Positions 10,693-56,454 are shown, numbered from the stretch's first letter. The stretch: DNA of 64,000 nt from Candidatus Bathyarchaeota archaeon (GCA_963771885.1 CAVYVF010000001.1:34777-98776); one strand, 5' to 3'. Made by a program: numbers and translations. Notes: a model not told the origin generated them from the letters alone.

Positions 10693-11003
10693 ACTCTAAC
10701 CCTCAAATTATCTATAATATTCACGTGCGCACGAGTGTGGAAAAACAGAATTTTTCTGGAAATATATAAAAAAAAATAGCGCGCGCAAAATCAAGTCAGG
10801 CTTTACAGAACAGATAAGCAGGACGCATTTCAAGTTCTTCAAGTCCCTAGGATTGCCTCTCGAGAAGATTAACGGAGTATTCTGCGGGGGTGGCTTGGAT
10901 CAACTGGAACTAGTTCACGCGATTATCGAATAACTTTCGGATACGTACTTGCGCACGCATGAGCTCATCCTGTTGTAAGGATTGACATTCTTTAAAAAAA
11001 ATG

Positions 11004-12860
11004 TCACCTTCTTCTAAAAAGTAGAAGCATCATCACGCTAAGTATGACGCCTATCGCGATGACCTCGGTTGGGTAGCCCGGTACCCCACCACCTCCACCC
11101 GTGCTTTGAGTTTGCAGAGTTATCGATGCGGTGACGCTGCTTCCGGCGGTAACTACCGCTGCTCCCGAATTAGTAACATAACCCGACTTGCTCGCTTCAA
11201 AGGTGTATGAACCAGCAGCAACATTTGTGAAGGTGACGGATCCATCCGTCCCTGAGACGCCGCTCAAGACTGCCTGCCCTGAGGGCGTAGTCTTCGATGA
11301 TACTGTGGAGCCGATTATAGGTTTGCCGTCTTTATCTAGAACGGTGATCTTGACCCCGCCGGTGGTTACCGGGGGTGTTGTAACGGTGAAGGCTGAGGAC
11401 TCGCTTCCCGCGGCGTTATACTGCGCATTCCCAGCCCACGAAGCCTCAACACTCCATAAGCCCACAACGGATGGCGCATAACTGTCAATATACCTACCAT
11501 CGCTCCCGGTTATAGCGGTTCTCGATAGTTCGGTTGTGCCCGACTTATACTCAACCTGTACAGATGCGCCTGCGACAGCGGGCGTGATTGCCCCAGAGAC
11601 AGTGAGTGTATCACCTAGTTGGATGCTAGATTTGTCTGGAGTACATGTGACCAAGCTTGACTGTTTATTTGAAAGTGGATTATCCTCTCCGACGACTACC
11701 CCGGATATCTTACCCGAGTTTTCGGAGGGGACCGTCACCAACTTGAAGTTGATGCTAGATGTAGTGCTACCAGTGGTGACGGAGACACCGGTCTTTTCCT
11801 GTGACTGATAACCGGGTGCTGAAGCCGATACTGTGTAGGTTCCTGTTGGTAGTCCACTCGCAATCTGGTAAATGCCCTCCGAGTCAGTTAGGTCGTGTCC
11901 CGAACCAGCTGAGACACTTGCCCCGACTATGGGATTATTATCAACGTCTAAGACGACACCCGTAATTATTCCAGATAATTGGATGATCACATCAAGTGTT
12001 AGGTTCACATTAGCGGTATCTTGGCCGACTGTAGCCGCTATGTTTGTTTTCTGGTCGAAACTTACGCCTGAGAAGACGGTCACGGTGTAGGTGCCTGTGC
12101 CGAGGCCGCTCTCAATCCTGTAACTTCCATCCGCCTCTGTGGTTGCGAATCCGTTATAGTTTTGGCCTCCGTCTGATACGGCGGATACTATTACCCCTCT
12201 TACTGGCTGGCCGGTTGGAGTTAATACTTTACCCGATATTATTGCGGAGCGATCGAGAGATATGTTGACGTTTTTTGTTTCGACGCCGGCTGTGACGCTC
12301 ACTGCGCCAATTGTCTTTGAATTATGTCCAGAGGCAGAGGTGACAGTGAGGTTATAAACCCCGGTTTCAAGGTTGGAGATTATCTTATAGTTGCCATTCG
12401 AGTCTGTATTTGCGAACCAGCCATAAGTTTCATTGCTGAATGCCGTGATTATGACATCCGCGATTCCAGCCCCTGACACAGAGTCGATGACCTTACCGCT
12501 AATCCCGCCTGAGCGTTTGAGGTTGAAGTTGATGTTTGCAGTGAGAGATCCGACGGTGACGGGAACTCCTCCAATGTTCTGATTAATATAACCTTCAGCA
12601 TATGTGGTGACGTTGTAAGTTCCCGCCGTTAGGCCCTCAGTGATTATGTAGTTGCCATTCGGCAGCGTAAAATTGAATCCGTGCCCATCATCGTTAGTGG
12701 CGATTATGATCGCTCCGGAAACAGGGGAATCGGGGTTCGCGGCCGCGCTGAGAATTGTGGGATACACTATCTGCGACGTTACTCCGAGTATTAATAAGAG
12801 AAAGATTGTATAGGATACTATTCGCTGATTCAAATTATTTTTTTTACTCAAAACTATCAC
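11004..12860 (-). CDS. Cell-surface protein with tandem carboxypeptidase-regulatory-like (Ig) domains and C-terminal sorting signal
   Basis: Signal peptide; repeated G.ISGKV...TD..G.Y.I..L..GTY.VT; C-terminus GGGGGVPGYPTE-TM-RRR. Confidence 0.85.
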   Translation of the reverse strand: MIVLSKKNNLNQRIVSYTIFLLLILGVTSQIVYPTILSAAANPDSPVSGAIIIATNDDGHGFNFTLPNGNYIITEGLTAGTYNVTTYAEGYINQNIGGVPVTVGSLTANINFNLKRSGGISGKVIDSVSGAGIADVIITAFSNETYGWFANTDSNGNYKIISNLETGVYNLTVTSASGHNSKTIGAVSVTAGVETKNVNISLDRSAIISGKVLTPTGQPVRGVIVSAVSDGGQNYNGFATTEADGSYRIESGLGTGTYTVTVFSGVSFDQKTNIAATVGQDTANVNLTLDVIIQLSGIITGVVLDVDNNPIVGASVSAGSGHDLTDSEGIYQIASGLPTGTYTVSASAPGYQSQEKTGVSVTTGSTTSSINFKLVTVPSENSGKISGVVVGEDNPLSNKQSSLVTCTPDKSSIQLGDTLTVSGAITPAVAGASVQVEYKSGTTELSRTAITGSDGRYIDSYAPSVVGLWSVEASWAGNAQYNAAGSESSAFTVTTPPVTTGGVKITVLDKDGKPIIGSTVSSKTTPSGQAVLSGVSGTDGSVTFTNVAAGSYTFEASKSGYVTNSGAAVVTAGSSVTASITLQTQSTGGGGGVPGYPTEVIAIGVILSVMMLLLFRRR

Positions 12861-13063
12861 GAGTAATCTTAGTAAAACATTTTATATGAACTTATAGTTT
12901 CTATCTCATATCATAAGAGCTAGGAATAACTATCCTCTAGCCTTCCTCTTAGCTTTCCCAATCTCTTCATGAGCCGTTCCTTACGCTGTGCGCGATGATA
13001 ATTTTATAGTGATTTTACGCGAAAATTGCGTGTATGACCTCATTCACGTGGGCGACAGATTGA

Positions 13064-13960
13064 ATGGTTTATTGGACGCAGGCATGTAACCCAGTATCAG
13101 ATGGAGAACAACCCTTGGGAATTTCACGTAGACTCAGCGTAGTTCAGAGTGCTCGCCTTGCCCAGTACCTGGAGCGTGAGAACTGCATCAGACAGCGCCT
13201 AAGAAGTCCTGAGGGATACAAACTCAGATTCGACAAACCTTACCTACGGGCAAGCGAGATCGCTGAGCAGTACTACTGCGAGAAAAAGGTGGAGATGACC
13301 AACATCCACGGCCGCGTGGAGACAGAGACTAAGAGACAGGGAAGCGAAGGACACGAGTCACTACTCGCGGAATCCACCATAGTCGACCGCGGTGATGTGC
13401 TCGAGGAGATATTCTACGGCGACCAAGTCATCATTCAGGAGATGCCCCTACTCGCTGAGCACAGTGGCGTACCCCTCGTCGGGCAGCCAGACGCCGTCGC
13501 CTTCAGGGAAGGCAATCCCACCATGGTCCTCGAGGCAAAATTTAGCCACTCACCCCTCCCCTACCGGAGCTACCACGCTCAGGCAAGGGTCTATGGGAGG
13601 ATGCTCGACGGTGCTGGTTTCGACACAAGCGACTTATTCTACGTGATAGCGGTGGCCCCAAGGGATAGGCGGGGCGACGAAACAATTTTCCGTAAAGTCG
13701 TCGATGCTCTTAGGGATAGGGGAGCCTCCGAGGAGAGCTTCGAGGTCGACGGTGTGCACGTCTACGTCTACGAATACAGGCAGACGGAGGCGGTAAAGGA
13801 TCTGGATTGGGCCATTGAGTACTGGACTGGATCAAGAGAAGCGGAGCCCGCGGAAAACGGTGCGAAGTGTAGAAGTTGTGAATATCAAGCGGAATGCATC
13901 AACGCCTCGAACTCCCACGATACGCGTCCACTCAACCCGAAGACTCCATCAAAGGAGTAG
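13064..13960 (+). CDS. Stand-alone Cas4/Exo5-like PD-(D/E)XK nuclease with 4Fe-4S Cys motif
   Basis: ASEIAEQYYCEKK, GQPD, VLEAK, QARVYG, CRSCEYQAEC; true start uncertain. Confidence 0.8.
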   Translation: MVYWTQACNPVSDGEQPLGISRRLSVVQSARLAQYLERENCIRQRLRSPEGYKLRFDKPYLRASEIAEQYYCEKKVEMTNIHGRVETETKRQGSEGHESLLAESTIVDRGDVLEEIFYGDQVIIQEMPLLAEHSGVPLVGQPDAVAFREGNPTMVLEAKFSHSPLPYRSYHAQARVYGRMLDGAGFDTSDLFYVIAVAPRDRRGDETIFRKVVDALRDRGASEESFEVDGVHVYVYEYRQTEAVKDLDWAIEYWTGSREAEPAENGAKCRSCEYQAECINASNSHDTRPLNPKTPSKE

Positions 13961-15456: not shown

Positions 15457-16806
15457 ATGATATTGAGCTTGAACGAGGCAAGGACTCGTCTGCTAAAAAA
15501 GGGTAAGTCAACTACAGGTCCAGTAGTTTACTGGATGAGTAGAGACCAGCGCGTCGAGGATAACTGGGCTCTTATCTATGCACAGCAAATAGCGCATGGA
15601 ACCAGTCAACAGTTATACATAGTTTTCTGCATTAGCCCAAACTTCCTGAATGCCTCACGGTGGCAATACGAGTTCATGATCGAAGGCTTACGATTAGTTG
15701 AACAACAGTCAGCCGCTCTGCAAATCCCATTTATACTATTAATCGGCGAACCATCAAGGGAAATACCTAAACTCGTTGAATCGATAGGAGCATCAGCGCT
15801 GGTAACAGACTTCGATCCTTTAAGAACGAAAAAAAATTGGAAACAGGGAGTAGTTGAGGAAATCCAGATTCCCATTTATGAGGTCGACTCACATAATATA
15901 GTTCCCTGTTGGGTTGCATCAACGAAACAAGAATACGCGGCCTATACGTTGAGGCCGAAGATAAACAGGCTTCTACATGTTTACCTTGAGGAATTCCCAA
16001 CTCCAAAAAAAATGCCGTATAAGGTGAAGGAGAGGGGTGATGCCTCTAACTGGGATAAGGCTCTTGAACTAATCCCTGAGGACGCCAACAAACCTTCTAC
16101 TTTACAAAAGTCAGGGTCAGAGAACGCGAAGAGAAGCCTACAGAGAATTCATAACCAATAGACTTACCGGCTACTCAGAGGCTCGAAACGATCCTAATTT
16201 GGATGGCCAATCAAGGCTCTCACCATATCTTCACTTCGGACAAATATCCGCCCAGAGGGTCGCATTGGAGGTAAAAGCTAGTTCTTCAGCCATGATCGAT
16301 AAAGATGCGTACCTTGAAGAACTCATCGTTAGGAAGGAGCTCTCAGATAATTTTCTAAATTACAACGATCATTATGACACTTTTCATTGCCTCCCAGCTT
16401 GGTCTAAGAGAACTCTGGACGAGCATAGGTGGGACCGAAGAGAATACACTTATAAATTAGCTGAGTTTGAGCGAGCTGAGACCCACGATGAGTTATGGAA
16501 CGCAGCTCAGAGACAAATGCTCAGAACAGGAACGATGCATGGCTACATGAGGATGTACTGGGCTAAGAAGATCCTTGAGTGGTCAGCTAGTCCAGAAGAA
16601 GCCTTCGAGGCCGCATTAGCCTTAACGATAGATATGAGCTCGACGGAAGGGATCCCAATGGCTACGCAGGCATCGCTTGGAGTCTGGGTGGTCTTCATGA
16701 TAGGGCGTGGGGTGAGAGGCCAATTTTTGGAAAGATAAGGTACATGAGCTATAAGGGATGCAGATCAAAATTTGATGTAGATAGATACATAAGAAAATTT
16801 AGTTAG
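15457..16806 (+). CDS. phr: Class II CPD photolyase (two frameshifts, ~16143 and ~16620)
   Basis: [52 protein letters not shown]; shifted frame gives [21 protein letters not shown] ending at TAG 16806. Confidence 0.92.
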
Positions 16807-16875: not shown

Positions 16876-17739
16876 TTATACGCGCGCGGCGGGAGCCGTT
16901 ATTGTAAGCAAATCCTCACCTAAGACAACTTCACCAGTGAAGTCCCGCCTGACCTCCACAACCATCCTATCAAGTAGTTCACGGGGCTTCTCCCTAATGT
17001 GGGTGAGGACCAGCTTGGAAACCCGGGCGTAACATGCCAGTTTCCCGACCTCGAGAGAACTCAAGACGTGCTTCGAGATAAGCTTGGTATCGAAGTCGTT
17101 AACCTCCTCCCCAGAATAATAGCATCCCGCCACCATGATATCGGCGCCTCTAGAAAAATCGATAAGTTCTTCGCTGATGACCGCGTCACCCGTGATCACG
17201 GTACTCACTCCACCCTCTGAGACCCGGATTGCATGGCAAGGCCACTCATGCCTACTCAAGCCAAGCCCGTGACCGTGGTTAACATCACACACGTCCACCC
17301 TCCAACCGCCTTTAGAGATAACCTGCCCAGCCACAACATCATGCACCTTAACCATGTCACGTATATCGACCAGCCTCTCCGTGGTTAACGCCGTCTCCTG
17401 AAGCCTATACCAGATATCCCTCTCATGGGCATCCAGTAGACTCTTAACCATCGCAGAGGTACCCGCCGGCCCATAGACGTTTATAACCCTGTTCGTAGCC
17501 AGGTTCCAGCTGCTAAAAAGAAGGTCAGCCAACCCCGAGGTATGATCAAAGTGAAGATGGGTCAAAAATACATCACTGAATTCGGTCACCTTGACACCGG
17601 CTTGAACCAACTGAGTGGAGACACCACGCCCAGCGTCAACAATCAGGTTTCCCGAGTCGAGCCTCACCAAAACTGAAGGCCCCATCCTGTTGGGGTCAGG
17701 TCTAGGCCCACCTGTCCCAAGGAGAGTGATCCTCATCAA
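16876..17739 (-). CDS. MBL-fold metallo-hydrolase (RNase Z/arylsulfatase-like)
   Basis: ITLLGTGGP, THLHFDH, ITGD, LVLTH. Confidence 0.88.
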   Translation of the reverse strand: MMRITLLGTGGPRPDPNRMGPSVLVRLDSGNLIVDAGRGVSTQLVQAGVKVTEFSDVFLTHLHFDHTSGLADLLFSSWNLATNRVINVYGPAGTSAMVKSLLDAHERDIWYRLQETALTTERLVDIRDMVKVHDVVAGQVISKGGWRVDVCDVNHGHGLGLSRHEWPCHAIRVSEGGVSTVITGDAVISEELIDFSRGADIMVAGCYYSGEEVNDFDTKLISKHVLSSLEVGKLACYARVSKLVLTHIREKPRELLDRMVVEVRRDFTGEVVLGEDLLTITAPAARV

Positions 17740-24435: not shown

Positions 24436-25554
24436 ATGTCTGACTCGAAAACGAAGCCGAGGGCGAGAGACCTGGGCATCCCGCTCCAAGGTAGAACGGG
24501 GAAATACAACGCCATAACTGACGTTCAAGGCGTAACTGTGGGCCACGAAACCATCATCGCCGGCGAAGGCAAGCTCGAGGTAGGCATAGGCCCCATAAGA
24601 ACAGGCGTAACAGCCATACTCCCCAGAGCCGACCACAGCGACCCCGTCTTCGCCGCCTGGTCCTGCCTGAACGGAAACGGCGAGATGACGGGAACCACAT
24701 GGGTGGATGAATCAGGCTTCCTTAGCGGCCCCATATTGATAACAAACACCCACAGTGTCGGAGTCGTCCACGACTCGGTCATTGAGTGGTCGCAGAGAAC
24801 CCGAAAATCTAGGGTCGGCAACCCCTGGTCTCTGCCAGTAGTAGCCGAAACCTACGACGGCTTCCTGAACGACATAAACGGCTTCCACGTCCGAAGGGAC
24901 CACGTTTTCAAAGCCCTCAACAACGCCTCTGGAGGCCCAGTTGAGGAGGGAAACGTCGGCGGCGGTACGGGTATGATCTGCCACAAGTTCAAGGGGGGAA
25001 TCGGCACATCATCACGAACTCTACGCTTGGCAGACTCAGACTATGTGGTTGGGGCGCTAGTTCAGGCAAACTACGGGCTCCGTGAGCAACTAACAATCTC
25101 AGGAGTCCCAGTAGGCCAAGAGATCCCCGACCTCTTGCCCGTGGAGAATGGGCAAACACCTCGAGACGGCGAACAGGGATCCATCATAGTAGTGATTGCC
25201 ACCGACGCGCCTCTTCTCCCACACCAGCTTCGCAGGCTAGCCAAGCGCGCGCCAATGGGCATCGCGAGGGTCGGGGGAATTGGCGGCAACGGTTCCGGCG
25301 ACATATTTGTCGCGTTCTCCACCGCAAATCCACACGTGATGAGTGATAAGGAGGTGAAGACAGTTCAGATGCTCCCTAACGAGTTGATGACTGACCTCTT
25401 CCAGGCTACAGTCCAGGTAGTGGAGGAAGCTATCTTGAACGCCCTCGTCGCCGCGAGAACAATGACGGGCATAGATGGCAACACGGTCTACGCGATTCCC
25501 CATGAGCGACTCAGAGAAGTGCTTAGAAAATTCAATCGTCTAGCCAAAGAATAG
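24436..25554 (+). CDS. dmpA: DmpA/P1 (S58) family L-aminopeptidase/D-esterase
   Basis: RARDLG, NAITDV.GV.VGH, NGNGEMTG, EEGNVGGGTGM, GSIIVVIATDAPL, NGSGDIFVAFST. Confidence 0.92.
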   Translation: MSDSKTKPRARDLGIPLQGRTGKYNAITDVQGVTVGHETIIAGEGKLEVGIGPIRTGVTAILPRADHSDPVFAAWSCLNGNGEMTGTTWVDESGFLSGPILITNTHSVGVVHDSVIEWSQRTRKSRVGNPWSLPVVAETYDGFLNDINGFHVRRDHVFKALNNASGGPVEEGNVGGGTGMICHKFKGGIGTSSRTLRLADSDYVVGALVQANYGLREQLTISGVPVGQEIPDLLPVENGQTPRDGEQGSIIVVIATDAPLLPHQLRRLAKRAPMGIARVGGIGGNGSGDIFVAFSTANPHVMSDKEVKTVQMLPNELMTDLFQATVQVVEEAILNALVAARTMTGIDGNTVYAIPHERLREVLRKFNRLAKE

Positions 25555-25621
25555 ATACGAATCTACCAAGCCTCAGCGCGCGCAGGTGACTGACATTAGT
25601 TTTATTAAAAAATGGAGTAAA

Positions 25622-30114: not shown

Positions 30115-30263
30115 TCTGTCTACTGTGCGCGCGACATTAGCATATTTTACTAAAAGCGCGCGGATGAGCCTATGGAATCCACAATGCATTGTAGACAAGT
30201 GTGCACGTAGATTGAGGTTAAGCTAGGGGTCCATTCAACCCTCGCGCTAAGGTGTCGCGCGCG

Positions 30264-32609: not shown

Positions 32610-32740
32610 ATGTTTAATAATTTGAATGAAAAACGAGAAGTTTCCAATACACGATCAGATCCATCAAGCGCAATATATCCCGGTATCCTGATTGTTGAGA
32701 ATAACGAGAGAGAATCACGTCTAATGAAAATCGCGCGCGC
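32610..32740 (+). pseudogene. Truncated response-regulator receiver fragment
   Basis: ILIVENNERESRLMKIA (receiver beta1-alpha1); similarity stops at CGCGCGCGC 32732-32740; divergent from the kinase. Confidence 0.5.
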
Positions 32741-37017: not shown

Positions 37018-37242
37018 TCAATCACCATGATCAGGCATCTTGAACCACGCGTGTATTGGGCGATGTTTGATACATTGTAATTGATCTTAATCGTCCTTAT
37101 CATTTTAATAGAATCTGCTTAACATGCGGGTGAGTCCTCTATGGCGCGCGCGGTTTGAATCTTTTAATCTTGGGCATTTTTTGTTTAGCTTAATGATTTT
37201 TCATTCTCAAAGCTTAGATTTATCAACGCTTACCTTTCTACC

Positions 37243-40641: not shown

Positions 40642-41418
40642 CTAGTTAGTTAAATCCAGTATCTCGGCAATCGAGGCGTTTCTCTTTACGGACTCGATAC
40701 CATTCAGCCTGTCTCCTGGATTGGTGTAGCCTTGGCTAACCGCGATAATCTCGTTATTCGCGGCGATGAGCCTGAACCTATATTCGCCACCTGAGTCCCT
40801 ATAGGTCTCAAATCTGGCTCTAAACACGAGCCCCTTGGTCTCAGACTCCTCAATCGGGGCATAAGCAGCTATCCTCTTAACGACTTCAACCCCATTTATG
40901 CAGCCGTTAAGATTTTCATATGACTCACTGGCAGCGATGATCAAATGATTTGGTGCCTTAAGCCTAAATCTGAACCCGCCCGCCTTATCCTCATAGACCT
41001 CGAATAGCGGCTCTGACTCTCTTGGGAGACTGACGTCTGAGAATCTGGCATCGCTTATGTTTATGTCGTGATCGTTATGGAGAGAATAGAATACTCCAAG
41101 TGGTTTTAGGGCACGATCAATTTTCTGTATTAGGAGAAGTTGATCCTCTAGGTCCGGGGTTTTGTACCAGTTGAAGGAAAAGTCGTATTCTCCGATCTCT
41201 GCGTGGTATTTGTCGATTAATGTGCTACATCTTTCTTCAGTTATTCCGCCAAATGATCGGAAGTAGCTCATTATCCCTTCTTGGTTGTCAAACATTGGTT
41301 GACTCAATGCAATGTATGGGTCCATTATACAGACTTGTGGTGTTTTGATAGAGATAGCTTCGAGCGCCTTGATGGCTTTCCCGAGTGGGGGTCCCATTAT
41401 CTTTACATAAGTCTTCAA
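40642..41418 (-). CDS. Fusion of an archaeal unknown domain with tandem YegP/DUF1508 domains
   Basis: Two FE.Y.D..G..RFRL.A.N..IIA.S..Y...NG.E.VK repeats at the C-terminus. Confidence 0.8.
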   Translation of the reverse strand: MKTYVKIMGPPLGKAIKALEAISIKTPQVCIMDPYIALSQPMFDNQEGIMSYFRSFGGITEERCSTLIDKYHAEIGEYDFSFNWYKTPDLEDQLLLIQKIDRALKPLGVFYSLHNDHDINISDARFSDVSLPRESEPLFEVYEDKAGGFRFRLKAPNHLIIAASESYENLNGCINGVEVVKRIAAYAPIEESETKGLVFRARFETYRDSGGEYRFRLIAANNEIIAVSQGYTNPGDRLNGIESVKRNASIAEILDLTN

Positions 41419-41557
41419 AGAGGATCAATATTTTTTTCTTCACCGTGAATAATAAAGGTGAGCTACCCCGCCCTTTAGTCAATCTAGCAAGGCGGTTTTA
41501 GTTATTCAGAAAGACTCGAAGTGCCAGATAAGATTAATTATTCCTATTAGCACATCG

Positions 41558-42247
41558 ATGATCATGCCCTTCTGTATCCACTGTGGAAAACCCGTTATAT
41601 CAACAGACAAATTTTGCGGAAATTGTGGGAAGCCCGTCTCGAACTCTCAAGAAACAGGAATTTCGGAAGTTAAATCGGCGTCATCTTCCCAATTAAAGAC
41701 CTCTGAAGTAGCTGTTAGCGTAGTCGCCACCAACTCACAGCCAAACTTTGTTGGATCAGCGGGTAAACCCCTCCCATCAGTTGAAACGATGAAGATGATC
41801 GTCCCAGACCAAGTAAGGATCTATGGATTTGGAAAGTCAGACACATTCAACCTCATCATTACGACTCATAGGAGCATATTTGCCAAACTCACGAAGAACA
41901 TTAAGGAGCAGGCCCAAAAGAAGATGAATGAGAAAATGGACGGGGCGAAGATGAATAGAGTGATCAAGTGGATGGCTAAACGAATCGATTACAGCGCCTT
42001 CCTTAACTGGTATGCTGAGAAGACGCCTCAGGAGGTCTTGGATGAAACTCCCGGCAACTACGCCATTGATAACATTGACATCATTGACGTGACGGTTAAT
42101 GATAATAGCGTTGATTCGGAGGAGGGAGGCAAGATCGCTGACTATGAGCTGGTTATTACTACTCGGGAGAAAACACTGAAGTTTAAGTCAATAATTAACC
42201 CGACTAATGTTCGGGGCCAGAGCATATACAACGCTTATAAAAATTAA
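41558..42247 (+). CDS. Zinc-ribbon domain protein
   Basis: FCIHCG...KFCGNCG. Confidence 0.8.
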   Translation: MIMPFCIHCGKPVISTDKFCGNCGKPVSNSQETGISEVKSASSSQLKTSEVAVSVVATNSQPNFVGSAGKPLPSVETMKMIVPDQVRIYGFGKSDTFNLIITTHRSIFAKLTKNIKEQAQKKMNEKMDGAKMNRVIKWMAKRIDYSAFLNWYAEKTPQEVLDETPGNYAIDNIDIIDVTVNDNSVDSEEGGKIADYELVITTREKTLKFKSIINPTNVRGQSIYNAYKN

Positions 42248-42707
42248 TGCTCCTTTCAAAGTACCTGCACACGCGCGCAGAATTCTCGGCAGTTAGATTC
42301 AGCTTCGATTTACGTTTAATAAATTAAAGGCAGTTGCGGAGCCACGATACATCACTGTAAAATGCGCGCGCACGCCACAGCCATTTTAGGAAGCCTGTGA
42401 ATTTAGGCCACTCCTATTTCTACCGTGCAATTATTGCCCACCCGAGTAAGCCAAGGTGAAAGTTTTTATCCACAAACTCCGCGCTGTTCTCTTAGCCGTG
42501 TCGCGCGCGTGAGCTCAGAGAACAGAGACATTTAACATACTCGTCCCCGATGGCGAGTGGCACGACGGGGCTAGATCTGCGCGCGCATCTTTACCTTTTT
42601 CAAATACATTACTTTGCTTAATAAAATGGGAAAAAATCGGACAAATTTATAGTATGATTATATTTTACTATACAAAACTAATATAAATTACCGTTTATTA
42701 CAAACAT

Positions 42708-42953
42708 ATGGTAATTCTGATGGCTGAGGTTGTAATAGTGTTAATGATGCTTGAGCCCGACACAGAGAGAGATGTATTAGAAAAACTTCGTGTTCTTTCA
42801 AACGTCTCAGAAGCCCATTTTCTATATGGCCCTTATGATGCATATGTCAAAGCTGAGGCTAAAACTACTGCTGAGCTTGAGAAACTTGTTTTAGATAATA
42901 TTCGTAGCATTAAAGGTGTGAGATCAACGACAACTTGTTTTGTAGCAGATTAG
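42708..42953 (+). CDS. Lrp/AsnC ligand-binding domain protein
   Basis: EAHFLYGPYD...IRSIKGVRSTTT. Confidence 0.88.
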   Translation: MVILMAEVVIVLMMLEPDTERDVLEKLRVLSNVSEAHFLYGPYDAYVKAEAKTTAELEKLVLDNIRSIKGVRSTTTCFVAD

Positions 42954-42980
42954 CCACAAGCGAGTAACCCCGTCCGGGGC

Positions 42981-43285
42981 TCAGCCGATGAATCGCCAAC
43001 CGGTCATCGGTGTGACTGCTACAGGGGCAGTGGAGTTGATCTCGTGGGTGTAGGCGCCCATGCTGGGGTCGTCGGCCCAGACCTTATGCAGGCTCCGGTT
43101 AGAATGTTCTTGACTTGGCTGAACCTCGCCCTCAGCGACCTGTCCTCATCTAACTGGATTGTGATGGGGTTTGTGTAGTCTCTCGTCGAGTTATTGATGA
43201 TCCAGCAGTCGAAGCTCCAGCCTAGGGATGGTATGGCTTCAATCCTGCTGGAGTTTCCCTGATTAAGAAAGTAGCTGCCGGCCTC
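42981..43285 (-). pseudogene. Fragment of a surface protein with InlB-B/Flg_new-like repeats
   Basis: GSYFLNQGNSSRIEAIPSLGWSFDCW..NPITIQLDEDRSLRARF, then after a frameshift GAYTHEINST..VTPMTGWRFIG*; no start codon; begins at CGCGCGCG 43285. Confidence 0.65.
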
Positions 43286-43495
43286 GCGCGCGTGGGTGCA
43301 TGCATTATTTGATCATATTTGCAGATTATTTAATGAAAATGGATTAATGATTCGTAATTATTAACGATAAAAGTAATTAATATGTGTAATCGTACTGTCT
43401 GATAGACGCAAAAGTTCAAACGCTTTTAAAAAGTGTTAACCAACGATAGCTCAGGTCTTATTTATTTAGCCAACTTTTTCTTAGGAGAGGGTTTA

Positions 43496-43650: not shown

Positions 43651-43908
43651 ATTTAAAGGACAATTAATTCTTAATAAGGATTCATAAAAGGAGGTGAAGT
43701 TATGTGCTTTTCGCGCGCGCGGTCGAAGTAGTCAAGCGCATACGCCTCTATCCTCAATTGTACCGTTTGGGTTGGATGCCTTTGGCATCGTTTTACTCGG
43801 TGCCTCGGTCTTCGTCTTGTGGAAGAACCCTTAGTGTTTCCTCGGGTGCACGTGGAGTGAGGGCTTAGGAAGATGCTCCGAGCACAGTTCATATTTTCTT
43901 GTGTTGAT

Positions 43909-44881: not shown

Positions 44882-45049
44882 ACCAATCGATGCCATGAAG
44901 AATTGCTCTTTTGTTAATAAAAGTGTACAAACTCGAAGAGAGTAGATAATTTATAAGATTTTGACGCACATGCATACCTGATCCTAGATGAGGTTCAAAA
45001 TTGTTAATAATTAAATTACGAAGACTAAGTTGGCGCTGATGGGAGGATC

Positions 45050-46300: not shown

Positions 46301-46446
46301 CCAAACGCTTGCAAGCTCGATGATCCGAAGTTGAGTCAGTTAAATGGGTATACTGTTCCTGCGAATATTATTTTTAAGGGAAGGAGGCTGAGAGTGCCTT
46401 TTTCGGGGTTAAGAGCGCATTTGATTAACTAATCATTGAGCTTGGG

Positions 46447-46704
46447 TTAGAAAGGACACACACACGCGGGGATACCGTTTGAGGCGTGGAATTTTAACAG
46501 GTAGTTCTGAGCTGGCTTGAATGAATAGTCCTGCACGTCATCGATCCTAATTATCACTGGCGGTTGTTTTCCTACGTTGTGATCTGTTGGGCTTGTTTCG
46601 CTTGATCTCTGGACTAAGCCAGCTGAGTAGAATCCGATGACTGCGCTACTTGTAACCAGGATGGCGATTGTAGCAGCTAGTATGATTCTCTCTATAGGCG
46701 CCAA
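46447..46704 (-). pseudogene. N-terminal fragment of a polysaccharide deacetylase/DUF2334-like protein
   Basis: TM then VIIRIDDVQD..LLKFH..GIPA, cut off by the GCGTGTGTGTGT tract. Confidence 0.6.
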
Positions 46705-46881
46705 GGTGGAGCAAAATAGGATGGTTGGGGAAAAGGATAATGGATTAATAATATTAGGAAACCCCTGCCAACATCTATTGACAAACCAGATTCCGGGTTA
46801 GGGGTTTAACCAGTATAGGGCCTACGCGTTCCTATCTGTAGTTCGTAAAGTAGAATATGGGGGAGAGGTAGTATTCTCCTA

Positions 46882-47202
46882 ATGGTAGAATTCACATACA
46901 TCCTGGTCTCGGGGGCCTTATTCACAATTGGTCTACTTGGAGATGTGATCACGACTTTATGGAGTTCTAGATACCCGGATATTTCCGTAAAGTATCCTTT
47001 TCAGAGATGGTTCATTGAAAAGGGGCTCTATACGGTAAGTCATATTGCTTTGCTTGTAACTGGCCTAATTCTTCTCTACATGTTCCGTAATGACCTGATC
47101 ATGATTATTGGCATCGCATTATTAGGGCTGGGACTACTTATTCCAACGTATTCTAATCTAAGAGCTATTAAGAAATCCAATAAGTTAGGTAAACATTCGT
47201 GA
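46882..47202 (+). CDS. Small membrane protein (DUF5658-like)
   Basis: Three TM; GDVITT.W motif. Confidence 0.6.
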   Translation: MVEFTYILVSGALFTIGLLGDVITTLWSSRYPDISVKYPFQRWFIEKGLYTVSHIALLVTGLILLYMFRNDLIMIIGIALLGLGLLIPTYSNLRAIKKSNKLGKHS

Positions 47203-47300
47203 AATAAGCCAGTGGCTTCGCTCGCGTGTGGTCATTTCTTTTCTAGTGCACGCGCGCCACGTATATGTCCTCACTATAGCCGCACGCACTCAATCACACT

Positions 47301-48935: not shown

Positions 48936-49111
48936 ACCACGGCTCTACTTCGGTCAATCGATTCTTTAAAACATCGTATGCGCAGCGCGCACCAACAGCA
49001 TTCCCATACGCTTGGGATTCCGGGGTAATAGATGCGCATCTGCGATTAGCGGAGTTCTACTTGTATAAGACTATAAGACCCATTCACTATGGTAATGATG
49101 GCTGTTCAACA

Positions 49112-49501
49112 TTGGTAAAATTCTGGTTTGACCATCTACATTTGGTTGTCCCCGACCCTGAGAGAGTAGCTGATTTCTTTGCAAAGGCCTTCGGAGCCGA
49201 GAAGGTTTCCACGGATAAGCTGCCTGATGGGCGTATCCGGGCAGAGCTTCGCATCTCCGGTGGCAGGATGATTATAAACACCCCTCAGCCGAAGGATACC
49301 CGCGTACAGGATAACCCGCAGGGCCGCTACGGAACTGAGCACTTCGGAATGAAGGTGGATAACCTGGAGAAAGCGCTCCAGCAGTGTCGAGATGCAGGCG
49401 GAAGAGTAACGATGGAACCTATACAGATACGGCCGGGTACGCGGATCGCCTTTTTCATGGGACCCGAAAACGTCCTAGTGGAACTCCTCGAAGCGAAGTA
49501 A
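49112..49501 (+). CDS. VOC (glyoxalase/bleomycin resistance) family protein
   Basis: FDHLHLVV, EHFGMKV, FMGPENVLVELLE. Confidence 0.88.
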   Translation: MVKFWFDHLHLVVPDPERVADFFAKAFGAEKVSTDKLPDGRIRAELRISGGRMIINTPQPKDTRVQDNPQGRYGTEHFGMKVDNLEKALQQCRDAGGRVTMEPIQIRPGTRIAFFMGPENVLVELLEAK

Positions 49502-49779
49502 CCACAACCAACGCGTCTAAATTTCTAGCTAGAGGGCAAGGGAATTGCATCCATCTACTCTTTGAGAGAATTATTTGGGGGCCTTCCGGCCCCTTATTAA
49601 AAGATGGCTGGCTGTCGGACCTAAATGGAGAGTATGGATCTTCCGACAAAGAAAGCATGGTTTCTGTACTCTTACCCCTTTTCAAATAATTATCTAATAA
49701 TATTTTTCATCTAGGCTTTAACTTAATTAGATTGCCACGGCGCACTATAGTAACTAGTCAAACTACTCGAGCATCAGCT

Positions 49780-49889
49780 TCGAAGCGAAGATCAGCTACG
49801 AGTTCCTAGTAGTCCTCGACGACCTTCTCTCACCTCTCCGTCGTGAAGTACCTCCCTCCATCATCCGCCCTAAGGTAGTTGCTTGTTCA
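49780..49889 (-). pseudogene. Decayed C-terminal fragment of a wHTH protein
   Basis: SNYLRADDGGRYFTTER*EKVVEDY*ELV (YxTTExG wing motif with two stops); starts next to GCGCGCGC 49890. Confidence 0.45.
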
Positions 49890-49962
49890 GCGCGCGCATC
49901 CAATCATCTTCTTAGTATTAAATGGAAGTGAGGATAAGAAAAAAAGTCTATGCGCATACAAC

Positions 49963-50690
49963 CTACTCTACCCTTCTCCCACATTGAGAACAAAAAACAC
50001 TATTCGCAGTTAGAGAGCCGCCACAATATTTACAAAAACTTGGTTTTTGAACCTGATTTAGAGTTGGAGTGGTCGCAGTCGTCGACTTTTCGCGGATCTT
50101 AGCGGGCATTTGTACAGTTGGATCTTTTTTCGAAATTTCTAGAAGAATAGTTTCCACCCACTCATGCTTACCCTCATCGGAAACAACATTCATGAGAGGC
50201 CCAACTACGGGTTTCCCAATTCCAATAAGCACGTTAGCAGCAAATGGGCTCGCGTCCACGTTTCCAAGCAACTTTACAAGTTAGGGATGAAGGGCTCTAA
50301 GGAAGGACCCCCAAAATTCAGTAAAGTAACACCTGCGATTGCGCGAGTCTGTGGGCTTTTATTAGATAAGGTATCTATCAAACCCGAAATAATTATTGGT
50401 AGAGTATTGTTCTTCGTCTTCCCCATCTCGTTTAACGCCGTAGCTGCGAAGGTCTTTTTTGAATCGTCGCCTAGGGCATCTAATAATGCGGGTATTGCTG
50501 GTTCACCCATTTCACTTAATAATATTGCAGCATAGGCATTCCGACTTGGGTCTCCTAGAACATTGATCAGTTGCGGGATAGCCGCTTTTCCAATCGTCTT
50601 TAGCATACGTATTGCGCTTGCTCGTGAATCTTCATCAGCTAAATTTTTTATCTCGTAAGCGATCGAACGATCTCTAAATCCGTTAAACAT
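49963..50690 (-). CDS. HEAT-repeat protein with C-terminal zinc ribbon (one frameshift at ~50280)
   Basis: IGKAAIPQLI, MGEPAIPALL repeats; adding one C joins to LVKLLG...FCKYCG..FCSQCG. Confidence 0.78.
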
Positions 50691-50999
50691 AGTGTTACTC
50701 CCCTCTACTGATTCTTTGTTTAAGAAATAAATAAAATATGTGAATATTTGGATCAGTGGAGTGATTGTTATTTTGCGCGCACTGCTTACACCCAAGACTT
50801 AAAGTGGAATACCGGGGTACCCCATTCTCTCAGTTGTATTTGCCTTATTTATTTCGATAATAATATTATACCGAGGGAAATATCTACGCGCACCTAACTG
50901 AGGCTAAAGTTTATGCACTTATGAAAAGTCCCAGCGCGCAACTTGTGGAGAGGCGAGTGGATATTTAATAACCGCCGAAAAAATGAACTACCGAGGAAG

Positions 51000-51467
51000 A
51001 TGGATAGAAAAGCAATAATCATTTTCTTAATCCTTTTAGCAGTTGCATCGACGCAAGTGGATGTTTATGCGGATATACCATCAACCTTAAGCATCACACG
51101 AAGAAGCGAAGGCGGCAATCTTTTAATTGACGTGAGGGTTCGCCACGCTGACCCAACGCCGAGCCATTTTATTGCGCAGATCAATGTGGACCTAGATGGA
51201 ACGGTGAAGGCGTTCACAGATCTCACGAAGGCGACGAGCGTCGAGGCAACCTATACTGTTAACCTTGGTCCGGTTAGCCCCAAGTTGATTAAAGCTCAGG
51301 CAGTGTGTAATACTCACGGTCCCGGGGGATACTTGTCTGAAACCGGTGGTGGAGGATCAGCGGGCGGAGGCGGGATTCCCGCTTATCCCAATGAGTCGAT
51401 CATAGCGGGCATCGGGTTGGGAGTCGCCGCAATTGTCATTCTAACAAAGTTCAGACCAGTGAACTAG
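51000..51467 (+). CDS. Secreted superoxide-reductase/desulfoferrodoxin-like domain protein with C-terminal sorting signal
   Basis: Signal peptide; VRH...SHFI...CNTHG; GGGGIPAYPNE-TM-KFR. Confidence 0.65.
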   Translation: MDRKAIIIFLILLAVASTQVDVYADIPSTLSITRRSEGGNLLIDVRVRHADPTPSHFIAQINVDLDGTVKAFTDLTKATSVEATYTVNLGPVSPKLIKAQAVCNTHGPGGYLSETGGGGSAGGGGIPAYPNESIIAGIGLGVAAIVILTKFRPVN

Positions 51468-51525: not shown

Positions 51526-52042
<517 letters not shown>

Positions 52043-54441: not shown

Positions 54442-54589
54442 TAGGGTTCACCAAAACCTATCTACGCGATTCATGATTTAGCACTTCTCGCACACCTGTC
54501 GTGCGTGAACTGATGGAATATATTGAGATCTGATTCGCGCGCGCGAGAATGTTTATTTCACTATGACCATTATTTTGTATGATTCTAAG

Positions 54590-55114: not shown

Positions 55115-55386
55115 GCGCGGTCCTTTACGTAATATTTCGATAACTAATTTTTACGCACTCGAACAAGTAATCTAGTTCCGATTTAAGGGCTAAGTCAATC
55201 CGCGAAGAGTTTATCGTATGGGCGTAGATTCCAGTTCGCATACATGTGTGCGCGGCGTTTTAGTCATCGCTATTCTTTGGGAGAGGCTTCTAGTTGAGCG
55301 CGCGCAATGTGTGTCGGAAGTATGAGTGTTGGGAGTTGGTGTGGAGTGGGACTAGGTCGATATAAGAGGAATTGTCATGCGGTGGT

Positions 55387-55938
55387 CTAGTGTGCTGCTC
55401 GCTTGAAGTGTGCCTCGTTTGAGGTAACTGCGAATGTGTCTCCCCAGACGTGGTTGAGCTGCTGGGTCTTCCCCACGTTTATCGCCGAGTTCTCATTGCT
55501 GTAGTAGTCGTCTTTAGCGTCGGAGTCGAGCACCTCGCCGATTATCCATACGCTTCTGCTGGAGAGCTCGACGCTCTGGGTCATGCGGCACTCCATCCAG
55601 CCGTATGCCTCGGTTATCCTCGGCGGGGAGACTCGGTTTGATTTTGCTTCGGTTAGGCCGCATTCCTTGATCTCGTTTACCTCGTATGGGTAGTTTGTTT
55701 CGAGTTTCTCCATATGTTGTCCAAATTCCTCGCCGACCAGGTTGACGACGAATTCTTTGTTTTGCCTGATGTTTGTCCAGGTGTCGTGTTCAACTTCGCA
55801 GCAGAAGCCGAAGAGGGGGGTGGGTCTTGAGGCCATTGGTGAGGAGAAGCTGAAGGGGGCTGCGTTGGGTATGCCTCTTGGTGAGGTTGTGGTGATGACT
55901 ACTGTGGGTCTGGCTTGGAGTCTGTAAAAATCCTTCAT
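55387..55938 (-). CDS. Flavin reductase (flavoredoxin) family protein
   Basis: NAAPFS, HDT..NI...EFVVN, PPRI.E..MEC, IGEV. Confidence 0.9.
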   Translation of the reverse strand: MKDFYRLQARPTVVITTTSPRGIPNAAPFSFSSPMASRPTPLFGFCCEVEHDTWTNIRQNKEFVVNLVGEEFGQHMEKLETNYPYEVNEIKECGLTEAKSNRVSPPRITEAYGWMECRMTQSVELSSRSVWIIGEVLDSDAKDDYYSNENSAINVGKTQQLNHVWGDTFAVTSNEAHFKRAAH

Positions 55939-56454
55939 GGTTCAAGATGGGGTTGGATGGATAAGCGTCTTTCTGGGGTGCGCGCGCCCTTCAGGTGTCG
56001 AACGGCGTCGCCTAGTCCGATATCTTGGAGCTACAGATCGGGAGGCTGTCCGTGTCTGGTGATCAGTTGAAGAGTATCGAACCTTACATCCAGGAATTCA
56101 TCCAGGATAGGGCCGATGGCAGGATGCGCGCGCAAATCTGTATCCTTCTTTAGCGGCGAGGTAAGTGTAGACACTAGGGTACCTCAGGAAGTCGGCCTAA
56201 CGCCACCCTAGACGCGATATCTTACGGCTTATTGTGCTGTATCTATGTTTGGGGTATTACGATTGTTTAGAATCAACTGTCCATTTCCTTTATATGGTTT
56301 ATTTTTAGAGTGGAATAATTGCTGACGGGAGAACCATCAGAATATTTTGGAGTGAAATAGATTGCGCGCGCACTCGCATAATTTTGGGAGAAACAATGGG
56401 TCCTCGGAGGTGTTACTGGAGAGTAAAAACGTATGCGCTCGATTGGAGAAGTAT

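What the first reader, a model, noticed from the sequence alone, without database searches (positions are those of the whole stretch)
10779..56134. Orphan gene fragments start or stop at (CG)n tracts, suggesting the tracts are recombination junctions or scars
Seen: at least four recognisable gene remnants break at a tract: the receiver fragment (ends at 32732), InlB-B-like repeat fragment (starts at 43285), deacetylase-like fragment (ends at 46468) and wHTH fragment (starts at 49890). Three more coding-like pieces are bounded by tracts (10787-10933, 43721-43834, 55988-56125). Inference: DNA is gained, lost or shuffled by recombination at these tracts, through microhomology between self-similar CG runs, Z-DNA-induced breakage, or a joining enzyme that leaves RY filler. 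That would explain the cassette-like mosaic of unrelated single genes without any integrase or IS in the window, as an integron-like but attC-free process.
Basis: inference. Interest (0 to 1): 0.85.

Follow-up and report, generated by a model that had tools for sequence, protein, structure and literature searches.

The report
CG-repeat seams at archaeal DNA joints
Short runs of alternating C and G in this uncultured archaeon sit exactly where stretches of DNA have been lost, gained or moved, as if broken DNA were sealed with a small CG patch, which is a repair signature I could not find described.

Summary
The tracts are real. The window has 20 (CG)4-5 runs, and GCGCGCGC occurs 15 times against 0.46 expected. 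No other dinucleotide repeat is enriched. The window comes from a Bathyarchaeia MAG, where tracts lie mostly between genes and are densest in low-GC, gene-poor parts.

Two of the four claimed gene remnants truly end at a tract: the InlB B-repeat and the DUF2334/deacetylase fragment. The wHTH fragment is weak. The receiver fragment and the three 'coding-like pieces' are unsupported.

- Near-identical contig pairs within the assembly break homology within 5 nt of a tract 9 times in 109, against 0.84 expected.
- In one pair, (GC)5 stands where the sister contig has 2078 nt, and the joint cuts a PNPOx-like gene.
- A contig from another sample joins window 41084 to 43404 with CGCGCGCG in place of 2319 nt.
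- Other samples carry the deacetylase reading on past the break.

Best reading: alternating CG (sometimes CA) filler laid down when ends are rejoined, and later reused. The enzyme is unknown. A Ku-LigD operon is present but does not track tract counts.

Three earlier notes of this scan report the same phenomenon in other Bathyarchaeia genomes.

The parts
492..501 (.). (CG)5 tract between short ORFs
4923..4930 (.). (CG)4 tract, 46 nt past the stop of the MFS transporter gene
10779..10786 (.). (GC)4 tract in the convergent gap after the NrdG-like radical SAM gene. Homology to relative L009 (78% nt) ends at the stop, 10694, and the next gene differs
16881..16888 (.). (CG)4 tract overlapping the last codons of the metallo-beta-lactamase-fold gene
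25245..25252 (.). (GC)4 tract inside the peptidase S58 gene, the only one of the 20 inside a Pfam-supported gene
25576..25583 (.). (GC)4 tract in a convergent gap
30256..30263 (.). (CG)4 tract abutting the stop codon of the GNAT gene, in a convergent gap
32732..32740 (.). 9-nt CG tract. The claimed receiver fragment here is not supported
37144..37152 (.). 9-nt CG tract in the divergent gap before the HerA-like gene
41085..43403 (.). 2319-nt segment that one contig of run X4 lacks, with CGCGCGCG in its place. The left edge lies inside the DUF1508 gene. Neither edge in the window has a tract or microhomology
   Evidence: tables 5 and 5c (depth 3.78, shorter side 46 nt)
42364..42371 (.). (GC)4 tract in a gene-free stretch
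42502..42509 (.). (CG)4 tract in a gene-free stretch
42579..42586 (.). (GC)4 tract in a gene-free stretch
43022..43312 (-). Remnant of one InlB B-repeat domain, with no start codon. It lacks the first 15 profile positions and begins at the tract
43285..43292 (.). (CG)4 tract at the cut end of the InlB B-repeat remnant. By my reading of 29 loose letters, a run X3 contig reads differently here and seems to lack the tract
   Evidence: table 7
43712..43721 (.). (CG)5 tract
46450..46797 (-). N-terminal remnant (membrane helix plus the first ~35 residues of the domain) of a DUF2334/polysaccharide deacetylase-like gene, cut at the tract
46456..46468 (.). ACACACACACGCG tract at the cut end of the deacetylase remnant. 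Contigs of X1 and X3 diverge from the window at 46457 and 46466, which leaves 46458-46465 (ACACACAC) as window-specific filler
   Evidence: table 7, 72
47246..47257 (.). GTGCACGCGCGC tract 44 nt past the PfkB stop. Contigs of X2 and X3 diverge at 47249 and 47260. The G014 orthologue has a CG tract directly at its PfkB stop
   Evidence: table 7
49890..49897 (.). (GC)4 tract. The adjacent 'wHTH' reading has 3 in-frame stops and only weak support
54536..54545 (.). (CG)5 tract in a divergent gap, 18 nt before the nitroreductase start
55298..55305 (.). (GC)4 tract in a convergent gap
55980..55987 (.). (GC)4 tract
56126..56133 (.). (GC)4 tract
56364..56371 (.). (GC)4 tract

Best explanation
The (CG)4-5 tracts, and a few (CA)n or mixed purine-pyrimidine ones, are seams. 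They are short alternating filler left at the joint when two DNA ends that were not neighbours are rejoined after a deletion, insertion or transposition of a segment. They pile up where such events are tolerated: between genes, mostly past 3' ends, and in the low-GC, gene-poor flexible parts of the genome. Orphan gene pieces that start or stop at a tract are what remains of genes cut by such an event. Once present, a tract can be used again, because any CG run pairs with any other and with itself, so some later deletions run from tract to tract.

Shown: the tracts coincide with joints; in three cases the tract is seen in the shorter allele and at none of the longer-allele boundaries that could be read; and the joints cut genes.

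Inferred: the tract is synthesised at the time of joining, and which enzyme makes it. The genome has a complete Ku / LigD-type polymerase / ligase-phosphoesterase operon and a PolX, which are candidates only.
For: 1) Specific excess. GCGCGCGC occurs 15 times against 0.46 expected. Only CG repeats are enriched among the dinucleotide repeats. Intergenic CG-run lengths 4 to 10 count 1800, 485, 148, 82, 73, 39, 20, with none at 11-14. That is a shoulder at 7-10 that other repeats lack.

2) No conserved flanks beyond an A at +1, so this is not a mobile element or a structured site.

3) Unbiased break-point test. Of 109 merged homology end points between contig pairs that are >=85% identical, 9 lie within 5 nt of a CG run >=8. 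Random intergenic positions give 0.84 on average, and at most 5 in 2000 draws.

4) C10 against C20. The same flanks are joined by (GC)5 in C10 and by 2078 nt in C20. The C20 edge lies at about residue 97 of a 115-aa PNPOx_N gene (46.1 bits). C10 is therefore the deletion allele and keeps a 19-codon stub next to the tract. C20 has no tract at either edge. Its internal tract is (CG)5, in the other phase, and cannot yield (GC)5 by simple retention.

5) Window. An X4 contig joins 41084 to 43404 with CGCGCGCG between them, and the window has no tract or microhomology at either edge.

6) Window. X1 and X3 contigs leave the window at 46457 and 46466. The letters before 46466, read by hand on the minus strand, continue the deacetylase frame much as the G016 homologue does. 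An uncut allele therefore exists, and 8 nt of ACACACAC are peculiar to the window's joint.

7) A 1.7-kb segment shared by C2 and C11 has a tract at its left joint in C2 and at its right joint in C11.

8) Two of the five in-alignment insertions >=12 nt between contig pairs contain a CG run >=8.

9) The tracts also stand in short-read contigs of other studies (table 8), so they are not an artefact of this assembly.
Against: - Only 9 of 109 break points are at a tract. Of 12 distinct collinear indel events, 4 show no tract at all: C2/C3 120 nt, C3/C4, C7/C23 116 nt, and the C7 element.
- In three C5/C6 events the longer allele already has CG-rich tracts at one or both edges. That fits a pre-existing hot spot or site as well as it fits filler.
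- Both longer alleles that I could read in full hold tracts inside the deleted segment (window 42364-43292; C20 11706-11715). Two deletions flanking a retained tract are therefore not excluded.
- The X4 joint rests on one contig of depth 3.78 with 46 nt on its shorter side, laid at 90% likeness.
- Ku does not track raw tract counts. Ku-positive genera g49, g41 and g10 have 0-46 GCGCGCGC, while Ku-negative G101, G108, G292 and G132 have 300-601 (counts not normalised for GC).
- No known polymerase is reported to add alternating CG at joints.
- The hard ceiling of 10 nt is unexplained.
Confidence: 0.5

Rival explanations
1. The tracts come first. They are fragile non-B (Z-DNA-prone) sites or B-Z junctions at whose edges breaks occur, so deletions and insertions start there. 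The tract is a cause of the joint, not a product of it.
For: C5/C6 events: the longer allele has GGCGCGCGC and GCACGCG at the two edges of a 2199-nt segment, and TGCGCGCAC and ACGCGCTCGCA at a 595-nt one, while the shorter allele keeps one copy. Both alleles of the C10/C20 5.3-kb event have a tract near the same joint. Internal tracts exist in the deleted segments. Z-DNA-forming sequences are known deletion hot spots (Freund 1989 and Wang 2006, seen only as cited in passages of PMC13174585).
Against: It does not explain where a ~20-fold excess of 8-10-nt tracts comes from. In the three cleanest cases, every longer-allele edge that could be read lacks a tract, and two of those edges lie in coding sequence. 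Each of these cases then needs two independent deletions plus, for C10, a phase change. GC8 patterns are generally suppressed in prokaryotes (PMC4060949, abstract and passages).
Confidence: 0.25
2. A site-specific, integron-like cassette system. A recombinase acting in trans recognises the CG core and inserts, excises and reorders gene cassettes.
For: Indel segments often hold whole genes, such as 485-aa and 115-aa genes in C20. Two blocks are in swapped order between C5 and C6, with CG-rich tracts at the block ends. There is one tract in the short allele and two in the long allele at two C5/C6 events.
Against: No tyrosine recombinase (PF00589) was found in the 92%-complete assembly, while the control rang in 14 of 14 genomes. 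No integrase or transposase is among the 74 window ORFs. There are no conserved flanks or secondary-structure partner. Joints fall inside genes. The tract composition varies ((CA)4 at 46458-46465). Serine recombinases and other families were not searched.
Confidence: 0.07
3. The tracts are an intergenic signal (for example for transcription ends or a DNA-binding protein) or a mutational or repair bias in unconstrained DNA. Their nearness to gene stubs is a by-product of both living in non-coding DNA.
For: Tracts occur between genes in the conserved high-GC core as well: 45 of 95 there lie outside ORFs, about 6x the coding density. They are denser in convergent gaps (0.53 per kb) than in tandem (0.31) or divergent ones (0.22). 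A tract lies beyond PfkB in both the window and G014.
Against: Break points coincide with tracts even against an intergenic-only null model. Tracts stand in place of kilobases. Their position relative to stops and starts is loose, with a median of about 100 nt. No C5 DNA methyltransferase (PF00145) was found to drive a methylation or very-short-patch bias. Other dinucleotide repeats are not enriched.
Confidence: 0.1
4. Assembly or binning artefact. The tracts or the joints would be products of a long-read assembly that also holds a foldback contig, duplicate haplotigs and a 446-T run.
For: C18 is a 98% self-inverted palindrome. T x446 plus A x64 lies at 51528-52037. There are several 1-nt frameshifts. 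Contamination is 6.66%.
Against: Short-read contigs of four other studies cover the tracts at 42364, 43285, 43712 and 49890 with few differences, and independently show the joints (tables 5, 7, 8). The same excess is seen in 15 of 17 genomes of the genus.
Confidence: 0.03

Closest known systems
Filler or non-templated nucleotides at end-joining junctions (eukaryotic TdT, Pol mu and Pol lambda N-additions and plant filler DNA, all recalled; bacterial and archaeal Ku-LigD NHEJ, whose polymerase adds ribonucleotides at gaps and blunt ends and promotes microhomology joining: PMC4797286, passages)
   Same: A short insert that belongs to neither flank sits exactly at the joint of a deletion or rearrangement. 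The genome encodes Ku, a LigD-type primase-polymerase and a ligase-phosphoesterase in one operon, as well as a PolX.
   Different: The insert is not random or 1-3 nt long. It is a strict alternating CG (sometimes CA) run of 8-10 nt. No known NHEJ polymerase is reported to make this. Ku presence does not track raw tract counts across 301 Bathyarchaeia.
Z-DNA-forming (CG)n and (CA)n tracts as deletion hot spots (Freund et al. 1989 and Wang et al. 2006, seen only as cited in PMC13174585)
   Same: The same sequences, and the same association with deletions and rearrangements.
   Different: In that work a pre-existing tract provokes loss of itself and its surroundings. Here the tract is found in the deleted allele and not at the longer-allele break points that could be read, and the tracts are over-represented rather than suppressed.
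Integron attC sites, and REP/BIME extragenic palindromes
   Same: Short palindromic elements between genes, past 3' ends, at the borders of variable gene blocks.
   Different: Only 8-10 nt long, with no flanking conservation, no imperfect hairpin, no integrase or RAYT-type gene found, and joints inside genes.
HIP1-type highly iterated octamer palindromes of cyanobacteria
   Same: A GC-rich 8-nt palindrome, many-fold over-represented, in one lineage.
   Different: HIP1 is spread through genes and is linked to cognate methyltransferases (recalled). Here the tracts are intergenic, vary in length and phase, lie at joints, and no C5 methyltransferase was found.
Enzymes that make alternating purine-pyrimidine DNA without a nucleic-acid template, for example the DRT3b reverse transcriptase that makes poly(dC-dA) (PMC13174585, passages)
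   Same: It shows that a polymerase can be built to write a strict alternating copolymer.
   Different: That is a bacterial defence reverse transcriptase. No RVT_1 domain was found in this genome, and its product is long, protein-primed and not known to be built into the chromosome.

Membership tests
End-joining junction filler | The insert lies exactly between two sequences that are not adjacent in the other allele | tested here: met
   C10/C20: (GC)5 against 2078 nt between identical flanks. X4: CGCGCGCG against window 41085-43403. ACACACAC at 46458-46465 between two break points seen in X1 and X3.
End-joining junction filler | The insert is absent from the unrearranged allele at both break points | tested here: met
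   No tract at C20 10072 or 12151, nor at window 41084 or 43404. The X1 and X3 letters beside 46457 and 46466 show no tract. Caveat: there are tracts inside the deleted segments.
End-joining junction filler | Polarity: the allele carrying the insert is the derived one | tested here: met
   The C10 joint cuts a PNPOx_N gene that is whole in C20. The window's deacetylase is cut, while X1 and X3 read on in frame (frame read by hand). For X4, the cut falls in the non-domain N-terminal part of the DUF1508 gene, which is less certain.
End-joining junction filler | Depends on an end-joining machinery (Ku, LigD-type polymerase, ligase) | tested here: inconclusive
   The full operon is present. However, Ku, found in 73 of 301 genomes, does not track raw GCGCGCGC counts. 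No GC normalisation was possible, and there is no functional test.
Z-DNA fragile site or deletion hot spot | The tract is present at the break point in the unrearranged allele | tested here: inconclusive
   Met in 3 C5/C6 events and at C20 4191-4198. Not met in the C10/C20 2078-nt, X4 and deacetylase cases.
Integron-like cassette array | A site-specific recombinase | tested here: not met
   PF00589: 0 matches in G000, while the control rang in 14 of 14 genomes. None among the 74 window ORFs. Serine recombinases were not searched.
Integron-like cassette array | A conserved, structured attachment site at each cassette end | tested here: not met
   Flanks of 131 intergenic tracts carry no information beyond A at +1.
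REP, MITE or other small mobile element | A repeated unit with conserved sequence or inverted ends beyond the core | tested here: not met
   A different ~570-nt element with CCACACACA...TGTGTGTGG ends exists in C7, but it is not the CG tract.
Methylation-driven iterated palindrome (HIP-like) | A cognate DNA methyltransferase | tested here: inconclusive
   No PF00145 C5 methyltransferase found. N4 and N6 methyltransferases were not searched.

The most novel reading that the evidence does not exclude
One group of Bathyarchaeia has an undescribed way of rejoining broken DNA. It writes 8-10 nt of alternating CG (rarely CA) into the joint. Because these seams pair with each other and with themselves, they then seed further tract-to-tract deletions and segment swaps. 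The result is a self-reinforcing, recombinase-free way of shuffling whole genes in the flexible genome.
Probability: 0.35. Interest if true: 0.9.

Novelty: new variant of a known kind. Interest (0 to 1): 0.8.

Why it matters
Junction filler is a fingerprint of the enzyme that joins the ends. A strict alternating CG filler would point to a polymerase or joining activity in archaea with a property not described so far. It would also give a simple sequence mark for reading the history of gene loss and gain in uncultured archaea straight from genomes.

It would further explain how a genome with no detectable integrase or transposase in this region keeps a mosaic, cassette-like flexible compartment. 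And it turns a sequence class that prokaryotes generally avoid (alternating GC of 8 nt or more) into a product of repair rather than a target of selection.

The idea can be tested directly with metagenomic long reads and with in-vitro end-joining assays.

Tried and rejected
- Metagenome collection: a protein scan with the deacetylase remnant and an exact 22-mer from it both found nothing, so I could not fetch the uncut allele as sequence.
- Receiver fragment: no family hit and 0 of 70 family genomes. Dropped.
- wHTH fragment: only a sub-threshold NCBIfam hit. Kept as weak.
- Three 'coding-like pieces': no hits.
- Terminator idea: a lone 8-nt palindrome cannot form a stable hairpin (my reasoning), and the distance to stops is loose. 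Not pursued.
- Microsatellite slippage: rejected, because other dinucleotide repeats are not enriched and the lengths do not step by two.
- Mis-binning of the low-GC contigs: rejected as the cause, because low-GC stretches inside the large contigs C2 and C22 carry the same tract density.
- Ku as the responsible gene by phyletic pattern: family-level co-occurrence among 31 relatives dissolved when 301 genomes were compared.
- Contig ends were checked for tracts as a sign of assembly breaks. None end in a long tract.
- Stretches without cover (for example 50033-50940 in X1) are not used as evidence.
- Not used: the search for homologous proteins, the search of protein representatives, structure and complex prediction. 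No open question here turned on them.

Full report
WHAT THE WINDOW IS

The window is bases 34777-98776 of contig C1 of a 2.46-Mb, 23-contig assembly. The assembly is 92% complete with 6.7% contamination. The best relatives of its NrdD gene are all titled Bathyarchaeota/Bathyarchaeia MAGs.

The window has 48.5% G+C against 55% for the genome. Pfam names about 50 of 74 ORFs. These are unrelated metabolic, sensory and defence-like genes on both strands, with no integrase or transposase.

THE TRACTS ARE REAL AND SPECIFIC

- The window holds 20 runs of (CG)>=4, each 8-10 nt long.
- GCGCGCGC occurs 15 times against 0.46 expected from 100 dinucleotide-preserving shuffles, with a largest value of 3.
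- Counted on both strands, the two CG octamers are 22-25x over a first-order expectation. (AT)4, (AC)4, (AG)4 and the rest are 0.8-3.1x.
- Comparing, 18 of the 20 tracts lie wholly outside Pfam-supported genes. One is inside the S58 peptidase (25245), and one overlaps the last codons of a metallo-beta-lactamase-fold gene (16881).

GENOME-WIDE PICTURE

The genome has 208 tracts. Density is 0.26 per kb on C1 and 0.046 per kb on the 1-Mb, 57.7%-GC contig C23. Low-GC stretches inside the large contigs C2 and C22 are as dense as the small low-GC contigs, so this is a compartment of the genome and not a binning error.

I used a crude gene map (ORFs >=90 aa, chosen greedily) and split the genome by local G+C:

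| Compartment | Tracts | Outside ORFs |
|---|---|---|
| Local GC <50% | 89 | 74 |
| Local GC 50-54% | 24 | 14 |
| Local GC >=54% | 95 | 45 |

- Non-coding DNA makes up 28% of the low-GC compartment and 13% of the high-GC one.
- Density per kb of gap is 0.53 in convergent, 0.31 in tandem and 0.22 in divergent gaps. The median distance to the nearest gene end is about 100 nt.
- Intergenic CG-run lengths 4 to 10 count 1800, 485, 148, 82, 73, 39 and 20. There are none at 11-14 and one of 15. This is a shoulder at 7-10 and a ceiling at 10 that no other dinucleotide pair shows.
- The flanks of 131 intergenic tracts carry no information except an A at the first outward position, in 125 of 262 flanks.
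- In the genus, 15 of 17 other genomes have 40-512 GCGCGCGC and two have one each.

- InlB B-repeat, 43022-43312(-). It matches Pfam Flg_new_2 at 25.6 bits, above the 23.6 cut-off. The match runs from residue 11, three bases after tract 43285-43292, and from profile position 16 of 73. This is a true stub that starts at the tract.
- Deacetylase, 46450-46797(-). A class-wide search found 271-409-aa open frames in five other genomes. The G016 protein (278 aa; DUF2334 at 58.1 bits, Polysacc_deac_1 at 43.7 bits) aligns over its residues 15-85 with residues 44-114 of the fragment at 34% identity. The alignment ends inside the tract ACACACACACGCG (46456-46468). The PGK gene ends only 150 nt further on, so the rest of the gene is gone.
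- wHTH, 49740-49889(-). It has in-frame stops and only a sub-threshold hit to MntR.
- Receiver. No support in Pfam or NCBIfam, and no match in 0 of 70 family genomes.
- The three 'coding-like pieces'. No hits.

If about one tract occurs per 700 nt of non-coding DNA, the chance that a given cut end falls within 3 nt of one is about 2%. Two confirmed stubs out of two doing so is therefore already unlikely by chance. This figure is my estimate, not a tool result.

AN UNBIASED TEST INSIDE THE ASSEMBLY

The assembly contains many contig pairs that are 87-98% identical: C2/C3, C5/C6, C10/C20, C7/C8/C9/C21, C12/C13, C14/C15, C17/C18, C3/C4 and C2/C11. They look like co-assembled strains or haplotigs. 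None involves C1.

I took every alignment end (>=85% identity, >=300 nt, away from contig ends, foldback C18 excluded) and merged ends within 15 nt. This gave 109 break points, 75% of them outside ORFs.

- 9 lie within 5 nt of a CG run >=8. Random intergenic positions on the same contigs give 0.84 on average, and at most 5 in 2000 draws.
- With runs >=7, the count is 10 against 1.43.
- The alignments were repeated without the low-complexity filter.

Some break points share an event, so they are not all independent.

INDIVIDUAL JOINTS

Chaining collinear alignments gave 13 indel events, 12 of them distinct. By my reading:

- 6 have a CG run >=7 at or within 25 nt of the joint.
- 2 have a weaker CG or purine-pyrimidine run (C14/C15).
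- 4 have none (C2/C3 120 nt; C3/C4; C7/C23 116 nt; a ~570-nt element in C7 with CCACACACA...TGTGTGTGG ends).

The clearest event is C10 against C20. C10 reads flank-(GC)5-flank, where C20 has 2078 nt between the same two flanks and no tract at either edge.

- The C20 segment holds a 485-aa solute-binding-type gene and most of a 115-aa PNPOx_N gene (46.1 bits).
- The edge falls at about residue 97 of that gene, inside the domain.
- C10 is therefore the deletion allele, and it keeps a 19-codon stub that abuts the tract.
- C20 has an internal (CG)5 at 11706-11715, but (GC)5 is not a substring of it with its flanks.

Other events:

- A second C10/C20 event replaces 5324 nt with 43 nt that contain ATGCGCGCGCAT. 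C20 has CGCGCGCG 5 nt inside its right edge.
- Three C5/C6 events have CG-rich tracts at one or both edges of the longer allele and a single one in the shorter.
- Two blocks lie in swapped order between C5 and C6, with tracts at the block ends.
- A 1.7-kb segment shared by C2 and C11 has its tract at opposite ends in the two contexts.
- Of the five in-alignment insertions >=12 nt, two contain a CG run >=8.

THE WINDOW ITSELF, IN OTHER SAMPLES

Twenty public runs from 14 studies hold part of 41500-50500. The best holds 53% of the sampled words. I laid Logan contigs of X1-X4, from four studies, on 36500-51400 at >=90% likeness.

1) One X4 contig joins 41084 to 43404, skipping 2319 nt, with CGCGCGCG between the two sides (depth 3.78; 46 nt on the shorter side). 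The window has no tract and no microhomology at either edge. The left edge is inside the DUF1508 gene.

2) An X1 contig follows the window up to 46457 and then goes elsewhere. An X1 and an X3 contig, with the same loose-end consensus, join the window at 46466. I read their preceding letters by hand on the minus strand. They continue the deacetylase frame with residues closely matching those that follow in the G016 protein. So an uncut allele exists elsewhere, and the eight letters ACACACAC (46458-46465) belong only to the window's joint.

3) X2 and X3 contigs part from the window at 47249 and 47260, which are the two ends of the tract GTGCACGCGCGC past PfkB. In G014, the PfkB orthologue has a CG tract directly at its stop, and its neighbours differ from the window's.

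4) Of the 19 loose ends shown, 11 are not at a tract: 50941, 40065, 40492, 38385, 40853, 43372, 36901, 36933, 37366, 37406 and 43144. Three are 12-19 nt away from one: 37164, 43304 and 42247. Four more loose ends were not shown.

The tracts at 42364, 43285, 43712 and 49890 lie within X1 contigs that differ from the window at few positions (table 8).

HOW IT MOST LIKELY WORKS

The association of tracts with joints is solid. For the direction of cause, three cases bear on it: C10/C20, X4 and the deacetylase. In each, the tract is seen in the shorter allele, no tract stands at any longer-allele edge that could be read, and two of those edges are in coding sequence. One deletion sealed by 8-10 nt of alternating filler explains each case. 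The hot-spot alternative needs two deletions on either side of a retained internal tract. Filler also explains where a 20-fold excess comes from, for a sequence class that prokaryotes otherwise suppress (PMC4060949, abstract and passages). The C5/C6 events show that existing tracts are used again.

The enzyme is not identified. Present in the genome:

- A three-gene operon on C23, as in the archaeal Ku-dependent pathway known from Methanocella (PMC4797286, passages): a LigD-type primase-polymerase (273.9 bits), Ku (133.5 bits), and a ligase fused to the LigD 3'-phosphoesterase.
- A PolX with a PHP domain on C2.

Evidence that does not favour Ku as the cause: Ku occurs in 73 of 301 Bathyarchaeia, and raw GCGCGCGC counts do not follow it. 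These counts are not normalised for G+C.

Not found in the genome: a Prim-Pol domain (PF09250), a C5 methyltransferase, an RVT_1 reverse transcriptase, or a tyrosine recombinase.

One could imagine reiterative or snap-back copying of a self-complementary CG end by a joining polymerase. That is speculation.

WHAT IS KNOWN

My searches were:

- 'GCGCGCGC' with 'archaea' (11 papers, none relevant by title).
- 'filler DNA' / 'alternating' / 'deletion junction' / 'prokaryot'.
- 'Z-DNA' / 'archaea' / 'intergenic' / 'alternating purine-pyrimidine'.
- LigD non-templated addition.

None found a description of CG filler at prokaryotic joints. Subscription journals are largely outside the library.

Three earlier notes of this scan describe the same phenomenon in other Bathyarchaeia genomes and reached similar readings. 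I treated them as leads and tested the claim here on this genome's own data.

VERDICT

- Observation: partly confirmed.
- Interpretation: supported in its core (joints) and best in its filler form. It is not integron-like.
- Novelty: a new variant of a known kind, junction filler, with an unknown enzyme.

Noticed in passing
window 51528-52037: A run of 446 T followed by 64 A. It is the only homopolymer of 12 or more in the whole assembly, so most likely an assembly or library artefact that may join unrelated DNA. I kept it out of the read-laying stretch.
   Followed up: partly
window 8757/8762 (NrdD), 16161-16790 (class II photolyase in three frames), 38057-38103 (HerA-like), 59267-59391 (DUF4011 helicase with MTES_1575 nuclease domain): Genes split by 1-nt frameshifts. 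NrdD has one extra base relative to relative L009. Other samples show 1-nt differences at 38094, 38682, 39590, 46730 and other places (table 4). Long-read indel errors are therefore likelier than real pseudogenes.
   Followed up: partly
G000 contigs C18; C2/C3, C5/C6, C10/C20, C7/C8/C9/C21, C12/C13, C14/C15, C17/C18: C18 is a 98% self-inverted foldback. Many small contigs are 87-98% identical copies of parts of others. These are co-assembled strains or haplotigs, which probably account for the 6.7% contamination figure.
   Followed up: yes
G000:C23:379235-382792 (L098:5235-8792): A complete archaeal end-joining operon: LigD-type primase-polymerase, Ku, and an ATP-dependent ligase fused to the LigD 3'-phosphoesterase. 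Ku is present in 73 of 301 Bathyarchaeia sampled.
   Followed up: partly
whole assembly G000: No tyrosine recombinase (PF00589) was detected, not even a Xer-type one, although the same search rang in 14 of 14 control genomes. The assembly is 92% complete, so absence is not shown.
   Followed up: no
whole assembly G000: Alternating CG runs stop abruptly at 10 nt: 25 runs of length 10, none of 11-14 and one of 15 at C22:151487-151501. The ceiling is unexplained.
   Followed up: no
G000:C7:118250-118801: A ~570-nt insert absent from the sister contigs C8 and C9. It has CCACACACA...TGTGTGTGG inverted ends and looks like a small non-autonomous mobile element.
   Followed up: no
window 56785-62368 and 37243-38695: Defence-island flavour. 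The window holds a DUF4011/AAA_11/AAA_12 helicase with an MTES_1575 restriction-endonuclease-like domain, a HerA-like ATPase, a PD-(D/E)XK/Exo5-like nuclease (13064-13960) and a ParB_N-like protein (4375-4761).
   Followed up: no
window 32809-33141 (+): A small TIGR04076-family protein (53.3 bits) sits just past the unsupported 'receiver' reading.
   Followed up: no
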